Sequence record: NC_101835.1
Strand: one strand, 5' to 3'
Length of the DNA stretch: 64,000 nucleotides
DNA from: a phage
The position numbers were made by a program, and so were the translations under genes. The notes beneath the pieces were generated by a model. The model searched no databases. It was not told the origin of the DNA and saw only the letters and a program-made list of their open reading frames with translations. Positions 26,572 through 37,497 of the stretch are shown in pieces (the first letter of the stretch is position 1; each line of letters opens with the position of its first letter).

Positions 26572-27150
26572 CTAAAAGTATTCATAGAGGTATCCATCGG
26601 GAGCTGGAATTTTTTCATGAATGTAGTAACCAACATATATTCCGGTTTCTCTGCTGCAAGAGTTGTGGGATACCCATTCTTTAAGAACGTTGCCATTCAT
26701 GTCCAACCTCCTTACATTTTTGCACCGTCTACCGCTGGTGCTTCTATGTAACAGAATATCCTCTGTCTGCTTGTCTTTATTTTCTCCCCAAGTCGTTAAA
26801 CGGATATTATCAAAAGAGTATCCTTTGAAATCGTCTATCCTGTCACAAGAAGGCTTTTTCCTTTTGTCGTATCCGCTGGCTACCCATTGGTCATACAACT
26901 CTTTGTAACCGTTTAGGTATAGCCACTCTTTAAACTCTTTTTTGGTGTAAGTCGGAGGAGGGTGACCTCTTTGCTTGCTGTTGCACTTTTGAGTCTTGTA
27001 CAACACACGTATTACACCTTTTTCTGAAGAGTCTTTAGCAAATTGGTCAGCCTCCCTGCTGGCCTTCTTACAGCACTCTTTGCACGTTGATTTGTTGCTG
27101 GTGTAGAAGTCGGAGGCCTCCTTGTCCTCCCCACAACGTTTGCATTTCAT
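26572..27150 (-). CDS. zinc-ribbon + HNH-like (DRID variant) endonuclease-like protein
   Basis: N-terminal CKRC..CKEC; C-terminal CDRIDDFKGYSFDNIRLTTWGENKDK resembles HNH_3 motif with R replacing the first His. Confidence 0.45.
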   Translation of the reverse strand: MKCKRCGEDKEASDFYTSNKSTCKECCKKASREADQFAKDSSEKGVIRVLYKTQKCNSKQRGHPPPTYTKKEFKEWLYLNGYKELYDQWVASGYDKRKKPSCDRIDDFKGYSFDNIRLTTWGENKDKQTEDILLHRSTSGRRCKNVRRLDMNGNVLKEWVSHNSCSRETGIYVGYYIHEKIPAPDGYLYEYF

Positions 27151-31575: not shown

Positions 31576-31929
31576 TTAGTGACAATCACCCCAATTACGA
31601 CCACACAAGTATTCACCTGTGATCTGGAACGGGACTCCCATCATTTTAGAAGCTTGCCAGAAGCAATGTACCACCATTTCGCCCACAGGACTCCAGATAA
31701 GTTCAAGCTTTCCGTCATCGTTCAAGATAGGATCGTACACCGTGTTTCCGTTTCTGTCAACCACTTCGTTTCCGTTTTCATCCTTGCGTGCCTTTTTGTA
31801 CTTATGACCGTCGAACACATGAAGTTTGGCCTCCTGCTCTGCCTTAAATGCTTCCAATTCTTCAATTGTGTCGAAGGTGTACACAGTCTTATACTTAGGT
31901 GTGTCAGGGACCTGAAGTTGGTACTCATC
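31576..31929 (-). CDS. DNA polymerase (family A), C-terminal segment / putative exon 2
   Basis: Begins DEYQLQV (completes HDE motif C with the upstream exon) and ends ..CGRNWGDCH, like the C-terminal His of T7 gp5 / Pol I; no SD before it. Confidence 0.6.
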   Translation of the reverse strand, partial: DEYQLQVPDTPKYKTVYTFDTIEELEAFKAEQEAKLHVFDGHKYKKARKDENGNEVVDRNGNTVYDPILNDDGKLELIWSPVGEMVVHCFWQASKMMGVPFQITGEYLCGRNWGDCH

Positions 31930-32205
31930 CAATAGTTCAGGTAGGTCGTTAAGCTACCCCGCACCATTACGTGCATAGCCATACGTTTTCACGTAGGATC
32001 GGACCATCTCATATTCCTATGATAAGCAACCACAGGAATCCTCCCATTTCGACCGCACTTGCTGGTCTACTTCCTTTCGGAATGGCCTCTGAGCGTTCGC
32101 TCTTTTGAGCGCTTCGTTGCGGATTACCTTGCCATAAGGTTTAGGCTTCCCGCAGTTAAAGAGGTTATTCGACATAGATTACTCTATGAAGCCACAATGT
32201 TATTT
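31930..32205 (-). other. putative group I self-splicing intron in DNA polymerase gene
   Basis: 276 nt between ..YYH and DE..; 5-prime exon ends in U, intron ends in G; GUGG near intron start can pair with exon CCAU; P-like AACUGCGGGAAGCC and Q-like AAUCCGCAACG; GAAA-capped hairpins. Confidence 0.5.
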
Positions 32206-34629
32206 ATGGTAATAAATAATACGACGAACACCTTCATCGTACCACCCACGCTTCACCATTTGGTGGTGCATAAGTATCCCAACCAAGTCACACAGCGATG
32301 CACCACCATTCTGTTGATATGCATTAAGTAAAGAGTGTTTAGATCGGGTCCAGATGGCATGACCATCAAAAGAGTAGATAAACTTCTTACCCGTTGCTTC
32401 CCAGAATTTCTCCAGATCCTCTTTACGGCCCTTAAGACCAGGGTTGGCATCCCAAAGCGCATCGATTACCCTTTGTCCCAACTCTGGAGAGATGTCCAGC
32501 ATATCTGCAACTTTATCTTTTTGTGCCCCGTACATAACCCCATACGTGATAGGTTTACCGTCGTTACGGGACACCTCTCTACCTGCTACTTTTGTATATG
32601 CCTCAGCATTGTTTTGGTGTGCGTCCCCGTTACTTACAACATCGTAATACAGGCCGTTGTCGAACTCAAAGGCACCCCAAGCCCCGATAAGCTGCTCTAA
32701 GTTGGACCCGTCAATACCGATCTCAAAGTATCCCGGAGGAACACCCCACAGACTACGCATCTCTTTACCCATAACCACTTTAGGAGATGGTTTAGGCATG
32801 TTTGCACAAATACTGTGTTTCTGTCTGGAAGTGTTTGTTAATCCAGAGCTTTTAGCAGGAAGCTTATGGTCAATCTTCAAACGTGGGTGATTAAGAAGAC
32901 CAGTGTCAACCTTATCCTCCTTGATTGGATCAAGTACCGATCTGCGGTTTCGCAATGATAACCATAAGACGATATCTTTAGCCATCTCTCCGTTCAATTT
33001 TTCAAGATTCGGACACAGGTGTCCAAACGTATCTTTCAGTTGCGGAGAAGTAATAAGTGCCCTAGCTTTTCTACGTATTTTCCCGAATACTTCCTTTTTA
33101 ATCCTTTCGGAGTTAGGAAAGCTTCGGAACTTGTGCACTGTTGTCTGAAACTTAGCATCAGTTTTGTTCCAGAAGTTGATAATTAGGTCACAATACTCTG
33201 ACTCTAAAAGCTCGTCCATGTATGCATATACTCGTGCATCAACATCTGCATCAGGTAGAGCTTTCTTCTTGCTGTCTTTAGTTACATCCTTAGTTCTCCA
33301 CATTGTCGGAAGCCAACCAGCACTGATCAGGTATCGCTTAATGTCGTCCTGATTGCTGATTTTCATAGGTATCTTGCAGTCAGGCATTCGCTTCTGCTGC
33401 AGATCGCTTATTGCCTGATCCATCAGCTCTTTAGGCAAAGGTTGTGGTGTGGAGGTGCCCTTAATATAACCTCTCAAGAAATCAGCCATCTTGTCGGGGT
33501 CTTTGCAGCCCATCTCTTCACACCATTTTATCCCCATCTTACTGACATCTCCTGTGGAGGTAAATGCTCTCTTAGGCGGGGCTTTGAACTCTAGAGCGCT
33601 CATGTCTACAGGATAGCCAAGCTTATCTTTTAACCATTTCCAACCATTATTAGAGATTGTCCCGTCTTGGTTAAACGGCTTTTCAGGGAACTTGGGCCGC
33701 TGAGACATTGACAGCTCTTTTAAAGGCAGTTGTGGTTCAACACGATCAGCGATTTCTTTCATCCACGCATCGCAACGGTCACGTAAAGCAATAGCTCCAT
33801 CTATGTCGAAGTATACACCCTGACGGGCCTGCAGCTCCATCAGGAAGTGCTGCAGCATGCCTCGACGTAATGCGTTCTTCCAGGTGATCTTCTTGAACCC
33901 TTTCGGCTTCTCTTTGGCAGGATCGTACATAAAGTTCTGCATGTCAGATTTGCCGTAGAATACACCTTTTGATTCCGCTACCAGTTCTTTCCAGAGCAGC
34001 TCCTGGATGATAACGTCCTCAAATACACGATCCACATACTTCCACAACGGAAGATCGCGCCAGTCATCAATTTGAACTTTCTGGTTACCAAGGGCATAGC
34101 CCCATGCCATAAGGCCGTGGGGACCAACAGGCTGCATTTTCTTAGTAACCGGGTTGAATACAGCGTCCGGACAACCTTTTGGTAAAGGGCGATCAGGCCA
34201 CAAGATTCGGCTCATCGCCAACGTATCAAACAGGTTAACCTGGTGGTCGTTGATAGTCCCCATGCATTTAGGATCACGGAACATATCAAAATGAATACCG
34301 GATAATCTTTCCATCAGCATAAAGTCATAACTGTAGCAGTTATGGCAGTTCAAAGCTGTTGGTGACCAGTCGGAATTGCCTGTAAGCCAACCTTCCAACT
34401 CCGAAAAATCTGCTATGCGAACTTCAAAACCTTTATAAAGAGTTTTCTTTGCCAGAATGAAGTTCTTAGCCTTTTCTATATCCTCCTCGGAGTAGTGTGT
34501 GCGGTCATTTAGAGGAAGGAACAGCATAAAACGGTTCTTATTCAGCTCTTTAAACAGGCCGCAGTGATAATAAAGATCTGGATCTTCCAAAAGCCCTGAG
34601 GCCTCCAGATCGAAGCACCAATTACTCAT
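32200..34629 (-). CDS. DNA polymerase (family A, T7 gp5-like), N-terminal 808 aa / putative exon 1
   Basis: N-terminal FDLEASGL..HCG exonuclease motif like T7 gp5; motif A region IGIDGSNLEQL; motif B KPITYGVMYGAQ; ORF stops at ..RIIYYHK, i.e. at motif C. Confidence 0.85.
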   Translation of the reverse strand: MSNWCFDLEASGLLEDPDLYYHCGLFKELNKNRFMLFLPLNDRTHYSEEDIEKAKNFILAKKTLYKGFEVRIADFSELEGWLTGNSDWSPTALNCHNCYSYDFMLMERLSGIHFDMFRDPKCMGTINDHQVNLFDTLAMSRILWPDRPLPKGCPDAVFNPVTKKMQPVGPHGLMAWGYALGNQKVQIDDWRDLPLWKYVDRVFEDVIIQELLWKELVAESKGVFYGKSDMQNFMYDPAKEKPKGFKKITWKNALRRGMLQHFLMELQARQGVYFDIDGAIALRDRCDAWMKEIADRVEPQLPLKELSMSQRPKFPEKPFNQDGTISNNGWKWLKDKLGYPVDMSALEFKAPPKRAFTSTGDVSKMGIKWCEEMGCKDPDKMADFLRGYIKGTSTPQPLPKELMDQAISDLQQKRMPDCKIPMKISNQDDIKRYLISAGWLPTMWRTKDVTKDSKKKALPDADVDARVYAYMDELLESEYCDLIINFWNKTDAKFQTTVHKFRSFPNSERIKKEVFGKIRRKARALITSPQLKDTFGHLCPNLEKLNGEMAKDIVLWLSLRNRRSVLDPIKEDKVDTGLLNHPRLKIDHKLPAKSSGLTNTSRQKHSICANMPKPSPKVVMGKEMRSLWGVPPGYFEIGIDGSNLEQLIGAWGAFEFDNGLYYDVVSNGDAHQNNAEAYTKVAGREVSRNDGKPITYGVMYGAQKDKVADMLDISPELGQRVIDALWDANPGLKGRKEDLEKFWEATGKKFIYSFDGHAIWTRSKHSLLNAYQQNGGASLCDLVGILMHHQMVKRGWYDEGVRRIIYYHK

Positions 34630-35360
34630 ACTGTCTCCTCCTGTGTCTTCTCAGCATTCTTTCTTGCAGCTATTGCATCGTCCCTGTTCTTGAAATACCC
34701 AAGGCATTTCCTTTTACCATCTACATAAATTCTGGCTACCCATCTTTCATGGGTTTTATCCCAATTCACCCCTGAGCAACCGCTGGTGTTATTATACTGC
34801 ACGGCTCTTCCACTCTTGTGCGAAAAACCATTATCTTCGAAGAACTTTCTTGCCCACTCTGCCTCTTCAAAAGTTCTGTACTGGCCTAGCCAGACCCTTT
34901 CACCTACAGAGTCTGTGCCTTGAGCTACCCATGCCCCTCTTTCTTCAGAATAGTGCACCCCGACCCTGCCAGATTTGTTGTTGCTACGAGGTATCTTGCA
35001 ACTTTTCTTTTTGTTATCTGTAGGTTCGAGTAGTTGCAAATTTTGAATACTGTTGTCAGCCACACCACCTGTTTCCCTTATCTCCTTGATGTGGTCAACC
35101 TCATACCCTTCCGGTACAGGACCGTTAAACATTTCCCAGATTATAACGTGGGCACCTTTAGTGCAATGCTTTCCTAGACTAACCACAGGCCTGCCATCAG
35201 CATCTTGCCCCTTGTCAGCTCTGGAGCCTGCTGAAGTTTTAACATATCCTACACCGCTGCCTGCCAGAATGTCTATCTTCCAAAAAAGATTTTGACCGTC
35301 ATACTCCAATATTTCTGACCACAAGTGATTAGCTACACAGTGATCTCTGAACTCGTTCAT
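34626..35360 (-). CDS. HNH homing endonuclease with two AP2 domains
   Basis: HNH core GYEVDHIKEIRETGGVADNSIQNLQLL..N; AP2-like repeats SGRVGVHYSEERGAWVAQ and SGCSGVNWDKTHERWVARIYVDGKRKCLGYF; stop overlaps polymerase start. Confidence 0.75.
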   Translation of the reverse strand: MNEFRDHCVANHLWSEILEYDGQNLFWKIDILAGSGVGYVKTSAGSRADKGQDADGRPVVSLGKHCTKGAHVIIWEMFNGPVPEGYEVDHIKEIRETGGVADNSIQNLQLLEPTDNKKKSCKIPRSNNKSGRVGVHYSEERGAWVAQGTDSVGERVWLGQYRTFEEAEWARKFFEDNGFSHKSGRAVQYNNTSGCSGVNWDKTHERWVARIYVDGKRKCLGYFKNRDDAIAARKNAEKTQEETV

Positions 35361-35418
35361 AAAGTGTTCTCCTTAAAGGGGAGGCGGTTGTACTACCCCT
35401 CCCACTCTTTGTTAAACA

Positions 35419-37497
35419 TTAAAAAGGCGTTTCATCATCCTCAAAACCAGGGACCGGGTCAGAGGATGGATCATCGTACTGGAGGTCTTCCTGCGTGTCA
35501 ACAGGCTTAACAGTAGGAGTTACAACCTTATCAGCCACAACCTTGCCCATAGGTGTTTCTACAACTGCATGCTCCTGATCCTCAAACATAGCCTGAGGTC
35601 TCCAAACAACCTCCCCACCTTCTCCGTCTGTAAACATTTGCATTTCTTTGTCCCAGTACCAATTACTGGCATCATGGAACTTACCTGTATGTGGGTCCAT
35701 AACTAAAGTGTCAGCAATACCTAAAGTTTTTGCTGGACGGTTTTTAAGACCTACCAGACGGACACGCCCACGAGAACGATCCACCATTTCTTCGGCCTCG
35801 ACACCTATGACTACCCAACTCAACTGTTCAAGCCCAGCCGATCCTCGCAAATTCTCTTTTCGCACAGGATACCAGAAAGGTAATGGGTTACCATCCTTGT
35901 CCTTAGGGGGCACAATCTCTGTACGTTTGAGGTGAGCGATCACCAAGATAAACACGTTAAACTGCTTACAAAACGCAGCCAGCTGAGTCATAGCCATGTC
36001 CAGTTCTTTTCGCTCATCTTTAACATTAAGCCCTGAAATTACCATAGACAGGTGATCCAGCACAATATAGCGACAATGGTACAGGCAGACCATTTGCTTA
36101 AGCTTGGTAATCAACTCGTCCACTGGAATAGACCCGAAATGTTTGAACACTTTGATTTTTCCAGCTTTTGCCCATGATTGGTGAATCTCTGCATGTTCTT
36201 GATCAGTTAAAAACTGGCTAGGATCTTCAACAAACTCTTTAACATCAAACCCTAACTGGTTTGCATACAAGGAGTTAATTGCTTCCTCTGGGTCCTCCTC
36301 AAGATGAATCATGCATAGACGATCATCCTCTTCGTAGTCATCGGCCTTTGGACATGTCGGGTCCATTAGGTATCTTGCAATACAGTGTTCCAGTTTTTTG
36401 GCTACAGTTGTTTTACCACCTCCTGATGGACCTGTAAGCATTACGAGTGTCCCTTTGTGCAAGCCTTTTAGCATTTTTTGCAGTTTTGGAAACTCTGCGC
36501 TGATATCTACCCCGTTGGAAGTCTTTTTCCGCAAAGATTCGATAGAGAAGTCTTCTAAATCCGACACAGCATCAGGCACATACTTAACAGGATGCCGGAA
36601 CATGTTTACAATATCTTCCAGCTTTTTAGCCTTCAGCATGTCACGGATATCTTTTACACCATCAGGGTCGTTTACCTCGCCAGGATATTCCACGTGGTAA
36701 ACGTTGTCAGCCATCAAAAATGCTGCAATATTATGTGTGGCTTCAACACCTTTGATAACGTGTTTTTGCTTCTCTACCTCGTTAGCCGCATCGTTGTCCA
36801 TTGCAAGGACCACTGTTCCGTAGCTACGGATAAATTTCTCATTGTTTGCAAAAGTATCTACTGCGTTTGCACATCCACAGTTAATTCCAACAAAAGGTAG
36901 GCAGGGTTTTCCTGCCAGATCACCCCCGTTGATAACTGCATCGATCCCGTCCTGGACCTCTTTAGCCCACTGTTTCACCTTTGCCGGGGCTTTAGCGTTG
37001 GTGAGAATCCCTTTTACTTGTATCTGATATGCAGCCTGCCATGCTGCAATAACATCACCTTCCCCCTCACAAACGTTAATCTGCTTACGGTTGTTAGAAG
37101 ATGCACACAGCTTTTGCCCAAACATTTGGGAGTTAGCCTTTACGATCCCAACCGTCGTAAAGTGCCCACGTTGCTCTTTGGGGATCGTCCAGTCACGCTT
37201 TTTGAAACCGGACAGATTCCCGTAGCGGTCGTAATATGGGAAATATGTTGCAGTAACTGTCACACCGTCTTCTTGGGACAATGCTGATCGCACACCAAAA
37301 TATTGTGCAGCCATCAGACCGATATTTTGTTGTGGGACAGGGACGATTTTAGTATTTTCTAAAACAGTCTCTACAGTTTCAACTTCTTTTTCATCACGAT
37401 AGTCTCGTTTCACACTTCCCCCACTTTTATACTTAGTTGCTTTCGGGTTTGGCTCACCGAAACGGTTGTATGCAGATGCCATAAATTTACTTCCCAT
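35419..37497 (-). CDS. bifunctional DNA primase-helicase (T7 gp4-like)
   Basis: TOPRIM residues CEGEGD and VLAMDNDAANE; Walker A LTGPSGGGKTT; Walker B YIVLDHL; acidic C-terminal tail ..FEDDETPF. Confidence 0.85.
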   Translation of the reverse strand: MGSKFMASAYNRFGEPNPKATKYKSGGSVKRDYRDEKEVETVETVLENTKIVPVPQQNIGLMAAQYFGVRSALSQEDGVTVTATYFPYYDRYGNLSGFKKRDWTIPKEQRGHFTTVGIVKANSQMFGQKLCASSNNRKQINVCEGEGDVIAAWQAAYQIQVKGILTNAKAPAKVKQWAKEVQDGIDAVINGGDLAGKPCLPFVGINCGCANAVDTFANNEKFIRSYGTVVLAMDNDAANEVEKQKHVIKGVEATHNIAAFLMADNVYHVEYPGEVNDPDGVKDIRDMLKAKKLEDIVNMFRHPVKYVPDAVSDLEDFSIESLRKKTSNGVDISAEFPKLQKMLKGLHKGTLVMLTGPSGGGKTTVAKKLEHCIARYLMDPTCPKADDYEEDDRLCMIHLEEDPEEAINSLYANQLGFDVKEFVEDPSQFLTDQEHAEIHQSWAKAGKIKVFKHFGSIPVDELITKLKQMVCLYHCRYIVLDHLSMVISGLNVKDERKELDMAMTQLAAFCKQFNVFILVIAHLKRTEIVPPKDKDGNPLPFWYPVRKENLRGSAGLEQLSWVVIGVEAEEMVDRSRGRVRLVGLKNRPAKTLGIADTLVMDPHTGKFHDASNWYWDKEMQMFTDGEGGEVVWRPQAMFEDQEHAVVETPMGKVVADKVVTPTVKPVDTQEDLQYDDPSSDPVPGFEDDETPF

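What the first reader, a model, noticed from the sequence alone, without database searches (positions are those of the whole stretch)
34626..35360. Free-standing HNH-AP2 homing endonuclease between primase-helicase and the intron-bearing polymerase
An HNH core followed by two AP2 DNA-binding repeats is the classic phage homing-endonuclease architecture. Its stop overlaps the polymerase start, and it lies within 2.5 kb of the putative intron. This suggests a homing-endonuclease/intron pair targeting a conserved polymerase site.
Basis: partly seen in the sequence, partly recalled or inferred. Interest (0 to 1): 0.55.

Follow-up and report, generated by a model that had tools for sequence, protein, structure and literature searches.

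The report
Free-standing HNH-AP2 homing endonuclease gene
This is an ordinary selfish homing-endonuclease gene parked just in front of the DNA polymerase gene of an rV5-like coliphage; it most likely targets the start of that gene and spreads independently of the intron 2.4 kb downstream.

Summary
Window 34626..35360 (-) encodes a 244-aa protein with an HNH_3 nuclease core and two AP2 repeats. Its TGA overlaps the polymerase ATG (ATGA). A real 276-nt ORF-less group I intron (31930..32205) splits polymerase motif C 2.4 kb downstream.

The window is a Vequintavirus (rV5-like) phage. Only 9 of 117 related GenBank records carry the gene; 108 have the same uninterrupted empty site. It always sits as a 731-nt insert between the polymerase RBS and ATG. 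Homologues of 64-84% identity occupy the same junction in more distant phages, sometimes more conserved than their flanks (82% against 55%). The first ~40 nt of the polymerase gene travel with it. These are signs of an active homing element whose target is probably the polymerase 5' end.

The proposed endonuclease/intron pair is not supported. The gene occurs with intron-less, ORF-less-intron and endonuclease-bearing-intron alleles without association. Three carrier phages have an intact intron insertion site identical to that of non-carriers. In 31 records the intron holds its own 168-aa HNH endonuclease.

An identical protein is already annotated as "putative homing endonuclease" (phage WalterGehring). 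This is a known kind of element and of low interest.

The parts
34626..35360 (-). HNH-AP2 homing endonuclease ORF (244 aa). The mobile insert relative to empty sites is 731 nt, about 34632..35362 as aligned; the position is ambiguous by 4-5 nt because ATGA occurs at both ends.
35013..35159 (-). HNH_3 (His-Me finger) nuclease core, aa 68-116. D89-H90, N103, N107 and N116 are invariant.
34848..34973 (-). AP2 repeat 1 (about aa 130-171)
34650..34784 (-). AP2 repeat 2 (about aa 193-237). Its 3' end also carries the new RBS (AGGAGG) for the polymerase.
35361..35418 (-). Primase-to-HEG spacer with a conserved G/C hairpin and the AAGGAG RBS. In empty-site genomes this RBS serves the polymerase; here the HEG has taken it over.
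34585..34629 (-). First ~45 nt of the polymerase gene (codons 1-15, Exo I motif FDxExSG). This hyper-divergent patch is linked to the HEG and is the inferred co-conversion tract and target/immunity region.
32206..34629 (-). DNA polymerase exon 1 (808 codons, ends ...IIYYH)
31930..32205 (-). ORF-less group I intron, 276 nt. U precedes the 5' splice site and the terminal base is G. It lies between the H and D codons of motif C.
31576..31929 (-). DNA polymerase exon 2 (DEYQLQV..., 117 codons plus stop). The spliced product is 925 aa, the same as the uninterrupted JES2013 polymerase.
35419..37497 (-). Primase-helicase, the upstream neighbour

Best explanation
The ORF is an active, or recently active, free-standing homing endonuclease gene of the HNH(N)-AP2 class. 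It resides in the replication operon of an rV5-like phage.

Inferred mechanism: during co-infection with a relative that lacks it, the protein binds DNA through its two AP2 repeats. The HNH domain then nicks or cuts at or near the RBS/ATG/first ~15 codons of the polymerase gene of the HEG-less genome. Recombinational repair from the HEG-carrying genome copies in the 731-nt gene together with about 40 nt of the polymerase 5' coding sequence. In carriers the site is split by the insert and carries substitutions (codon 3 ATG to AAT, codon 5 TCG/TCT to TGC) that probably protect it from cutting.

The insert takes over the old polymerase RBS. It supplies a new RBS and an ATGA overlap, so polymerase expression is preserved.

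The intron 2.4 kb downstream is a separate mobile element, and in some relatives it carries its own HNH endonuclease.

Shown here: domain content, exact insertion site, sporadic distribution, horizontal transfer, linked flank patch, purifying selection, and independence from the intron. Inferred: cleavage activity, cut position, nick versus double-strand break, and the protective role of the substitutions.
For: - Domains and catalytic residues.
- Distribution: 9 records carry the gene and 108 have the contiguous empty site.
- Every empty site has the same boundaries, q35357/q34630.
- Among 8 carriers the HEG has 0.5% pairwise diversity, against 2.5% in the primase and polymerase flanks.
- The 50-nt window spanning the insertion has the highest carrier/non-carrier divergence of 166 windows: 0.24 against a median of 0.039.
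- The carrier-type polymerase 5' 60-mer at >=95% identity is found only in the 9 carrier records. Most non-carriers are 77-80% identical there, although the genomes are about 96-97% identical over this region.
- Homologues of 84, 82, 68 and 64% aa identity all sit at the same primase|polymerase junction with a 4-nt overlap onto the next gene (ATGA read). Their backbones have polymerases 74, 55, 74 and 75% identical to the window's.
- L024 (carrier) against L008 (non-carrier): 1 mismatch in 400 nt upstream, 19 of 42 in polymerase nt 1-42, and 0 in nt 43-390. L024 nt 1-42 differ from the window at only 5 of 42, against 218 of 858 further on.
- dN/dS is 0.07-0.25 between homologues.
- Experimental precedent: T4 MobE, a free-standing HNH between nrdA and nrdB, nicks the 5' part of nrdB, and carriers have polymorphisms at that site (PMC2790892).
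Against: - No biochemical data exist for this protein or any close homologue, so the cut site is inferred only from population patterns.
- Only 3 positions are strictly fixed between the 8 carriers and 9 non-carriers in the panel.
- HMD-6, a non-carrier, differs from the carrier allele at only 4 nt of 60. Most of the patch may therefore be hitch-hiking variation rather than immunity.
- Some HNH-AP2 genes in other phages appear to move without site specificity (PMC2248197).
- The AlphaFold model is poor for the HNH half (pLDDT below 50).
- The HdK5 copy is split into two ORFs, so some copies are decaying.
Confidence: 0.8

Rival explanations
1. Collaborative homing pair. The free-standing endonuclease cuts intron-less polymerase alleles at the motif-C intron insertion site. 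The ORF-less intron both spreads with it and protects the carrier genome.
For: An ORF-less intron and a free-standing HEG do lie in or next to the same gene in the window, C2 and C5. The mechanism has precedent, as described in PMC2790892.
Against: - There is no co-occurrence. Carriers split 3 intron-less, 2 HEG-intron and 3 ORF-less-intron, against 59, 28 and 21 non-carrier records (p=0.45).
- JES2013, typing phage 4 and HdK5 carry the endonuclease with an intact insertion site. That site is 100% identical over 50 nt to non-carriers nimi, CarlMeissner and YN3, and the same over about +/-85 nt apart from one shared polymorphism.
- The flank sequence linked to the gene lies next to it, not at the intron.
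- The inferred target and the insertion site share no sequence similarity.
- The intron has its own HNH endonuclease in 31 records.
Confidence: 0.04
2. MobE-like trans homing. The endonuclease cuts at the polymerase 5' end, and occasional long repair tracts drag the endonuclease-less intron 2.4 kb downstream along with it.
For: This is shown experimentally for T4 mobE and the defunct I-TevIII/nrdB intron (PMC2790892). The geometry here is similar.
Against: - The distance (about 2.4 kb) exceeds the ~2 kb maximum co-conversion reported for T4.
- The tracts seen here are about 40-110 nt.
- Polymerase exon 1 beyond nt 45 is as diverse among carriers as the primase, 2.5%.
- There is no statistical linkage with the intron.
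Confidence: 0.08
3. Domesticated or non-homing function, for example a nuclease used against competing phages or host DNA, or an AP2-type DNA-binding regulator of the replication operon.
For: Purifying selection (dN/dS 0.07-0.25), tight translational coupling to the polymerase, and persistence at the same site in diverged lineages.
Against: - The gene is absent from 108 of 117 close relatives, which grow without it.
- The horizontal-transfer and co-conversion signatures are those of homing.
- Purifying selection is also expected for an active homing endonuclease.
Confidence: 0.07

Closest known systems
T4 MobE, a free-standing HNH homing endonuclease between nrdA and nrdB (Wilson & Edgell 2009, PMC2790892)
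   Same: Both are promoterless HNH genes wedged between two essential genes of one operon. The target lies in the conserved 5' part of the downstream gene. Carriers have polymorphisms at that site, and a group I intron lies further down the same gene.
   Different: MobE has a zinc-finger-type DNA-binding region, not AP2 repeats, and there is no detectable sequence relationship beyond the HNH motif. MobE's nick was mapped experimentally; here the target is only inferred. The T4 intron lies within co-conversion range and is mobilised in trans, whereas here there is no linkage.
HNH(N)-AP2 homing endonuclease family (Magnani et al. 2004, PMC520932, cited through; IPA-HNH genes of ICP1, PMC10448857; Xanthomonas phage HNN-AP2 genes, PMC2248197)
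   Same: N-terminal HNH_3/HNN nuclease plus a C-terminal AP2 DNA-binding domain. The genes are free-standing and sporadic in phage genomes.
   Different: This protein has two AP2 repeats and a strictly conserved insertion site. The Xanthomonas phage genes were reported at varied sites.
CB7_54 of Pectobacterium phage CB7 (Certrevirus, Vequintavirinae; PMC7344957)
   Same: It is published as a free-standing HNH at the 5' end of a polymerase gene that also carries HNH-containing group I introns. It has HNH_3 plus an AP2-like C-terminus and overlaps the polymerase start.
   Different: It has only 188 aa and one AP2-like repeat. Identity is 36% over that repeat and about 24% elsewhere. Its upstream neighbour is a structural-protein gene, not the primase.
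F-CphI and the psbA intron of cyanophage S-PM2 (collaborative homing; PMC6083498, and as described in PMC2790892)
   Same: A free-standing endonuclease lies next to a gene with an ORF-less group I intron.
   Different: F-CphI uses an Endo VII motif and cuts at the intron insertion site. Here the indirect tests argue against cutting at that site.
Identical or near-identical annotated genes in GenBank: WalterGehring bas51_0076 'putative homing endonuclease', O157 typing phage 4 'AP2 domain protein', JES2013 ORF211 and FFH2 ORF207 'HNH endonuclease'
   Same: 99.2-100% amino-acid identity at the same position.
   Different: None, except that these are annotations only. No target or activity has been reported for them in the papers I could search.

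Membership tests
HNH-AP2 free-standing homing endonuclease | His-Me finger (HNH_3/HNN) nuclease motif with a catalytic His and metal-binding Asn residues | tested here: met
   Pfam HNH_3 45.7 bits against a cut-off of 24.8. D89-H90, N103, N107 and N116 are invariant in 8 homologues.
HNH-AP2 free-standing homing endonuclease | C-terminal AP2 DNA-binding domain(s) | tested here: met
   Pfam AP2 matches in two stretches with 32.5 bits, 0.8 below the cut-off. Precomputed PF00847 is recorded for homologues. The model shows two beta3-alpha units, and Foldseek matches WRINKLED1 double AP2 (E 8.7e-4) and TEM1 AP2 (rmsd 1.5 A).
HNH-AP2 free-standing homing endonuclease | Presence/absence polymorphism at a fixed site among close relatives; not inside an intron or intein | tested here: met
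   9 carrier records against 108 empty-site records, with identical boundaries. The gene lies between two genes with its own start and stop.
HNH-AP2 free-standing homing endonuclease | Horizontal spread with co-conversion of flanking sequence | tested here: met
   The HEG is 82-84% identical where the flanks are 55-74%. The L024/L008 pair shows a clean insert plus a foreign patch of about 40 nt. HEG diversity is 0.5% against 2.5% in the flanks.
HNH-AP2 free-standing homing endonuclease | Site-specific nicking or cleavage of the HEG-less allele | not testable with these tools
   This needs protein and DNA substrates or phage crosses.
Collaborative homing pair (free-standing endonuclease + ORF-less intron) | The endonuclease cleaves intron-less alleles at the intron insertion site, so carrier genomes need the intron or a variant site | tested here: not met
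   Three carriers lack the intron and have an insertion site identical to that of non-carriers. This is an indirect test; cleavage itself was not assayed.
Collaborative homing pair (free-standing endonuclease + ORF-less intron) | Co-distribution of endonuclease gene and intron | tested here: not met
   Contingency tables give p=0.45-0.83 (from the counts).
Group I intron (the neighbouring element) | Matches the group I covariance model; exact absence in other alleles restores the reading frame; U before the 5' splice site and a terminal G | tested here: met
   Rfam RF00028 64.7 bits against 50. The 276 nt are precisely absent in 63 records, restoring ...YYH|DEY.... The sequence reads CCAT|AAAT...ATTG|GATG. 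Splicing itself was not tested.

The most novel reading that the evidence does not exclude
The most novel reading not excluded has two parts. First, the HNH-AP2 enzyme, by breaking the polymerase 5' end, acts as a recombination initiator. It would occasionally drag the whole polymerase gene between co-infecting Vequintavirinae, including its endonuclease-less intron, the intein site and a downstream HNH gene, so keeping otherwise immobile elements alive (MobE-style trans homing over more than 2 kb). Second, the cassette rewrites the first ~13 polymerase codons around the Exo I motif (MSMWSFDFESSG to MSNWCFDLEASG). It would thereby transfer a functionally distinct polymerase N-terminus across lineages.
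Probability: 0.1. Interest if true: 0.4.

Novelty: already known. Interest (0 to 1): 0.2.

Why it matters
It matters little beyond annotation quality. The result shows that this phage's polymerase gene hosts at least two independent selfish elements and that they should not be read as one system. The comparative data give a concrete, testable prediction of the endonuclease's target: the RBS/ATG/Exo I-motif region of HEG-less Vequintavirus polymerase genes, with codons 3 and 5 as candidate immunity positions. That could be useful to anyone characterising the still poorly studied HNH-AP2 nucleases. It also bears on engineering rV5-like therapeutic phages, where such elements bias the outcome of crosses.

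Tried and rejected
- The pair hypothesis was tested by cross-tabulating endonuclease and intron states and by comparing insertion-site sequences. It was rejected.
- I looked for sequence similarity between the inferred target and the intron insertion site. There was none: score 7 against a shuffle mean of 8.2.
- I looked for paralogues of the gene elsewhere in the window and found none.
- A scan of IMG/VR with the polymerase returned only 6 loci. They served as HEG-less comparators but were too few for statistics, so the survey rests on GenBank phage records, which include duplicate RefSeq/GenBank entries and several near-clonal isolates.
- A sequence search of the PDB gave nothing significant, with a best E of 0.42 to an ERF AP2 domain.
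- The AlphaFold model built on an 8-sequence alignment was poor for residues 1-132 (pLDDT below 50). The HNH fold is therefore supported by sequence profiles only, and I did not run further fold searches.
- A promoter/terminator scan found nothing above shuffled expectation, so there is no evidence for an own promoter. The spacer hairpin (z=-2.8) is present in carriers and non-carriers alike and is not specific to the element.
- A first attempt to anchor loci with a 300-nt primase segment failed for rV5 and the IMG loci because that part of the primase is variable. I redid it with whole-region BLAST.
Full report
**What is at the coordinates**

Window 34626..35360 on the minus strand is a 244-aa ORF. 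It has an ATG start and an AAGGAG ribosome-binding site 8-13 nt upstream.
- Pfam finds an HNH_3 nuclease core at aa 68-116 (E 5.1e-12, 45.7 bits against a cut-off of 24.8). It also finds two AP2 stretches whose summed score, 32.5 bits, is just under the 33.3 cut-off.
- PHROGs places the protein in phrog_99 'HNH endonuclease' at 5.6e-52.
- An alignment with seven homologues shows D89-H90, N103, N107 and N116 invariant. It also shows two typical AP2 repeats, SGxxGV...W.A.I....K..LG.F...(E/D)A..AR.
- An AlphaFold model on that shallow alignment is poor for residues 1-132. It resolves two beta-beta-beta-alpha units in the C-terminal half. Its best PDB match is the double-AP2 factor WRINKLED1 on DNA (E 8.7e-4), followed by the TEM1 and Plasmodium AP2 domains.
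- The TGA of the ORF overlaps the ATG of the next gene, reading ATGA.
- The upstream neighbour is a DnaB-type primase-helicase at 35419..37497. The downstream neighbour is a family-A DNA polymerase.

**The intron**

Rfam finds one family in the whole window above its gathering score: a group I intron at 31980..32215 (-), 64.7 bits against 50. Alignment with an intron-less allele (phage JES2013) gives the exact limits as 31930..32205, 276 nt. The intron lies between the His and Asp codons of polymerase motif C (...IIYYH|DEYQLQV...). A U precedes the 5' splice site and the last intron base is G. Exon 1 (808 codons) plus exon 2 (117 codons, 31576..31929) gives 925 aa, the length of the uninterrupted JES2013 polymerase. 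The intron has no credible ORF. It starts 2,421 nt from the 3' end of the endonuclease ORF.

**What genome this is**

The region is 95-98% identical to Escherichia phage rV5 and its relatives (genus Vequintavirus). The best match is at 97.7%. That record is one of several GenBank entries labelled 'UNVERIFIED Campylobacter phage' that are plainly Vequintavirus.

**Distribution of the endonuclease gene**

A tblastn search of 50,697 phage records finds the protein at 99% identity or more in only 9 records. These are seven phages: C2, C5, FFH2, WalterGehring, JES2013, O157 typing phage 4 and HdK5. The next best hits are about 44% identical, in unrelated siphophages.

An 84-nt probe spanning the uninterrupted primase-polymerase junction finds 117 records. 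In 108 of them the junction is contiguous. Nine match only partially, the same number as the carrier records; FFH2, the one shown, matches over 48% of the probe.

In all nine non-carriers that I fetched, the similarity breaks at the same two positions, window 35357 and 34630. The element is a 731-nt insert placed exactly between the polymerase RBS and the polymerase ATG. ATGA occurs at both ends. The insert uses the old RBS for itself. It carries a new one (AGGAGG) in its last codons for the polymerase.

The HdK5 copy is split into two ORFs, through decay or a sequencing error.

**Signs of mobility**

1. Among the eight carriers (seven phages plus the window), the insert has 0.5% mean pairwise diversity. 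The flanking primase and polymerase have 2.5%.
2. The highest carrier/non-carrier divergence of 166 sliding windows is the one spanning the insertion point, at 0.24 against a median of 0.039. The signal comes from the first ~45 nt of the polymerase gene.
3. All carriers read ATGAGTAATTGGTGCTTCGATCTGGAGGCCTC(A/C)GGGCT(T/C)TTGGAAGA(T/C), differing only at the three bracketed positions. Most non-carriers read ATGAGCATGTGGTCGTTCGA(C/T)TTTGAGTCATCCGGTTTGCTGGAAGA(C/T).
4. In the database, the carrier-type 60-mer at 95% identity or more occurs only in the nine carrier records. Most non-carriers are 77-80% identical there, although this 7.3-kb region is about 96-97% identical.
5. A search of 5.8 billion proteins finds only nine relatives. 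The four that I traced (84, 82, 68 and 64% identical) all lie at the same primase|polymerase junction with the same 4-nt overlap onto the next gene (the junction reads ATGA in all four). They sit in metagenomic phage contigs whose polymerases are only 74, 55, 74 and 75% identical to the window's. In two of them the selfish gene is much better conserved than the essential genes around it.
6. The cleanest case is contig L024 (carrier) against L008 (non-carrier). There is 1 mismatch in the 400 nt upstream, 19 of 42 in polymerase nt 1-42, and none in nt 43-390. L024's first 42 nt differ from the window's at only 5 positions, against 218 of 858 further on. The mobile unit is therefore the gene plus the first ~13 polymerase codons, which is what a homing event with a short co-conversion tract leaves behind.
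7. dN/dS between the homologues is 0.07-0.25, so the protein is maintained.

**Where it probably cuts**

The linked patch covers the polymerase start and the Exo I motif (MSxWxFDxExSGLL), a conserved and functionally critical sequence of the kind homing endonucleases usually exploit.

Within Vequintavirus, the differences that always separate carriers from non-carriers shrink to codon 3 (AAT against ATG) and one base just before the ATG. Codon 5 also separates them, TGC in carriers against TCG, TCT or AGC. The non-carrier HMD-6 differs from the carrier allele at only four bases, all in codons 3 and 5. TGG TGC TTC at codons 4-6 is also shared by the diverged carriers L021 and L024.

My inference is that the recognition or cleavage site spans the RBS-ATG-codon ~6 region of empty alleles. 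It would be destroyed in carriers by the insertion itself and by these substitutions. This step is inferred, not shown.

The closest experimental precedent is T4 MobE. It is a promoterless free-standing HNH between nrdA and nrdB that nicks the 5' part of nrdB, and carriers have polymorphisms at the nick site (PMC2790892). As with mobE, no promoter of its own is detectable. The G/C hairpin in the spacer is present with and without the insert.

**Is it paired with the intron?**

The evidence says no.
- Three allele classes exist at the motif-C site in the phage database: intron-less (63 records), an intron carrying its own 168-aa HNH endonuclease (31 records; phrog_59 at 1.5e-36), and the ORF-less intron of the window (23 records).
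- The HNH-AP2 gene is found with all three. JES2013, typing phage 4 and HdK5 are intron-less. FFH2 and WalterGehring have the endonuclease-bearing intron. C2, C5 and the window have the ORF-less intron.
- The tables give p=0.83 for records and p=0.45 for distinct phages. These counts include near-clonal isolates and are not phylogenetically corrected. There is not even a trend to correct.
- The three intron-less carriers have an insertion site identical over 50 nt to that of non-carriers nimi, CarlMeissner and YN3. It is also the same over about +/-85 nt, apart from one polymorphism shared with non-carriers. An enzyme aimed at that site would cut its own genome.
- The ORF-less intron is 100% identical over 131 nt in carriers and non-carriers.
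- The inferred target and the insertion site share no similarity.

A weaker link is occasional trans-mobilisation of the intron by long repair tracts, as with MobE and the T4 nrdB intron. This cannot be excluded. However, the distance of 2.4 kb is beyond the ~2 kb limit reported for T4. The tracts seen here are about 40-110 nt. Polymerase exon 1 beyond nt 45 is as diverse among carriers as the primase.

**Comparison with what is known**

HNH (or HNN) nucleases fused to AP2 domains are a recognised family of phage homing endonucleases. This is described by Magnani et al. 2004 as cited in PMC10448857 and PMC2248197, and by the 'IPA-HNH' genes of ICP1.

A related subfamily member, Pectobacterium phage CB7, was published with two HNH-bearing introns in its polymerase gene, which splice. 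It also has a free-standing HNH, CB7_54, at the 5' end of that gene (PMC7344957). CB7_54 has HNH_3 plus an AP2-like tail but is only distantly related to the window protein.

The very protein of the window is annotated at 100% identity in phage WalterGehring as 'putative homing endonuclease', next to a polymerase annotated as a two-piece join. Other records call it 'AP2 domain protein' or 'HNH endonuclease'.

I found no paper reporting its target or activity. The original rV5 paper described terminase introns but did not describe the polymerase intron; rV5 itself lacks the HNH-AP2 gene.

**Verdict**

The 'homing endonuclease' reading is confirmed as far as sequence data can go. The 'endonuclease/intron pair' reading is not supported. 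The element is a known kind and is already annotated. What this analysis adds is a specific prediction of the target site and clean filled/empty allele pairs. Interest is low.

Noticed in passing
window ~32617 (polymerase aa ~671); L019:2768-3765, L027, L007, L008: In 241Ecol014PP and JEP1 the polymerase ORF is 1132 aa, with a 969-nt in-frame insert at this point and a weak Hint_2 match (E 8e-4). This is probably an intein. Two IMG/VR relatives have a ~1-kb insert at the same place. L009 has a ~400-nt insert near window 32814. The polymerase gene is a hot spot for several different selfish elements.
   Followed up: partly
window ~31580 (just after the polymerase stop); L020:1087-1734, L019:1087-1734: phita32 and 241Ecol014PP carry a 215-aa NUMOD4 + HNH_3 + HTH endonuclease gene in a ~670-nt insert directly downstream of the polymerase gene. 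It is absent from the window.
   Followed up: partly
L002:2126-2632 (FFH2); same in WalterGehring L014:1627-2133: In 31 records the motif-C intron contains its own 168-aa HNH endonuclease (phrog_59), and the intron core around it also differs from the ORF-less version. Exon bases next to the intron differ between intron-plus and intron-less alleles: GAT GAG TAC CAA against GAC GAA TAT CAG.
   Followed up: partly
window 26572..27150 (-): A 192-aa ORF with CxxC pairs matches phrog_1035 'endonuclease VII' (6.4e-33) but no Pfam family. It may be another free-standing homing endonuclease of the Endo VII-motif type. Its distribution in relatives was not checked.
   Followed up: no
L017:3851-4584 (HdK5): The HdK5 copy of the HNH-AP2 gene is annotated as two ORFs, and tblastn matches it in two pieces at 99.2%. 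This is either a frameshifted, decaying copy or a sequencing error.
   Followed up: no
L025:1200-1871: A metagenomic relative carries a second HNH_3 + AP2 gene (223 aa) between the methyltransferase-like gene and the primase, in addition to the one in front of the polymerase.
   Followed up: no
window 32017..32175 (-): A 52-aa ORF lies wholly inside the 276-nt intron and is annotated in rV5 as hypothetical ORF 227. It is most likely not a gene.
   Followed up: no
GenBank MG0656xx records (L015, L016): Many records named 'Campylobacter phage' (C2, C5, A14x, and others; UNVERIFIED and unannotated) are rV5-like coliphage genomes. They inflate the record counts with near-identical sequences.
   Followed up: no
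window 35361..35418 (-): A G/C-rich hairpin (GGGAGGGG...CCGCCTCCCC, -23.4 kcal/mol, z -2.8) between the primase and the next gene is conserved across lineages, with or without the insert. Its G and C runs are the kind of sequence AP2 domains are said to prefer (PMC10448857), so it might be part of the binding site. This is speculative.
   Followed up: partly
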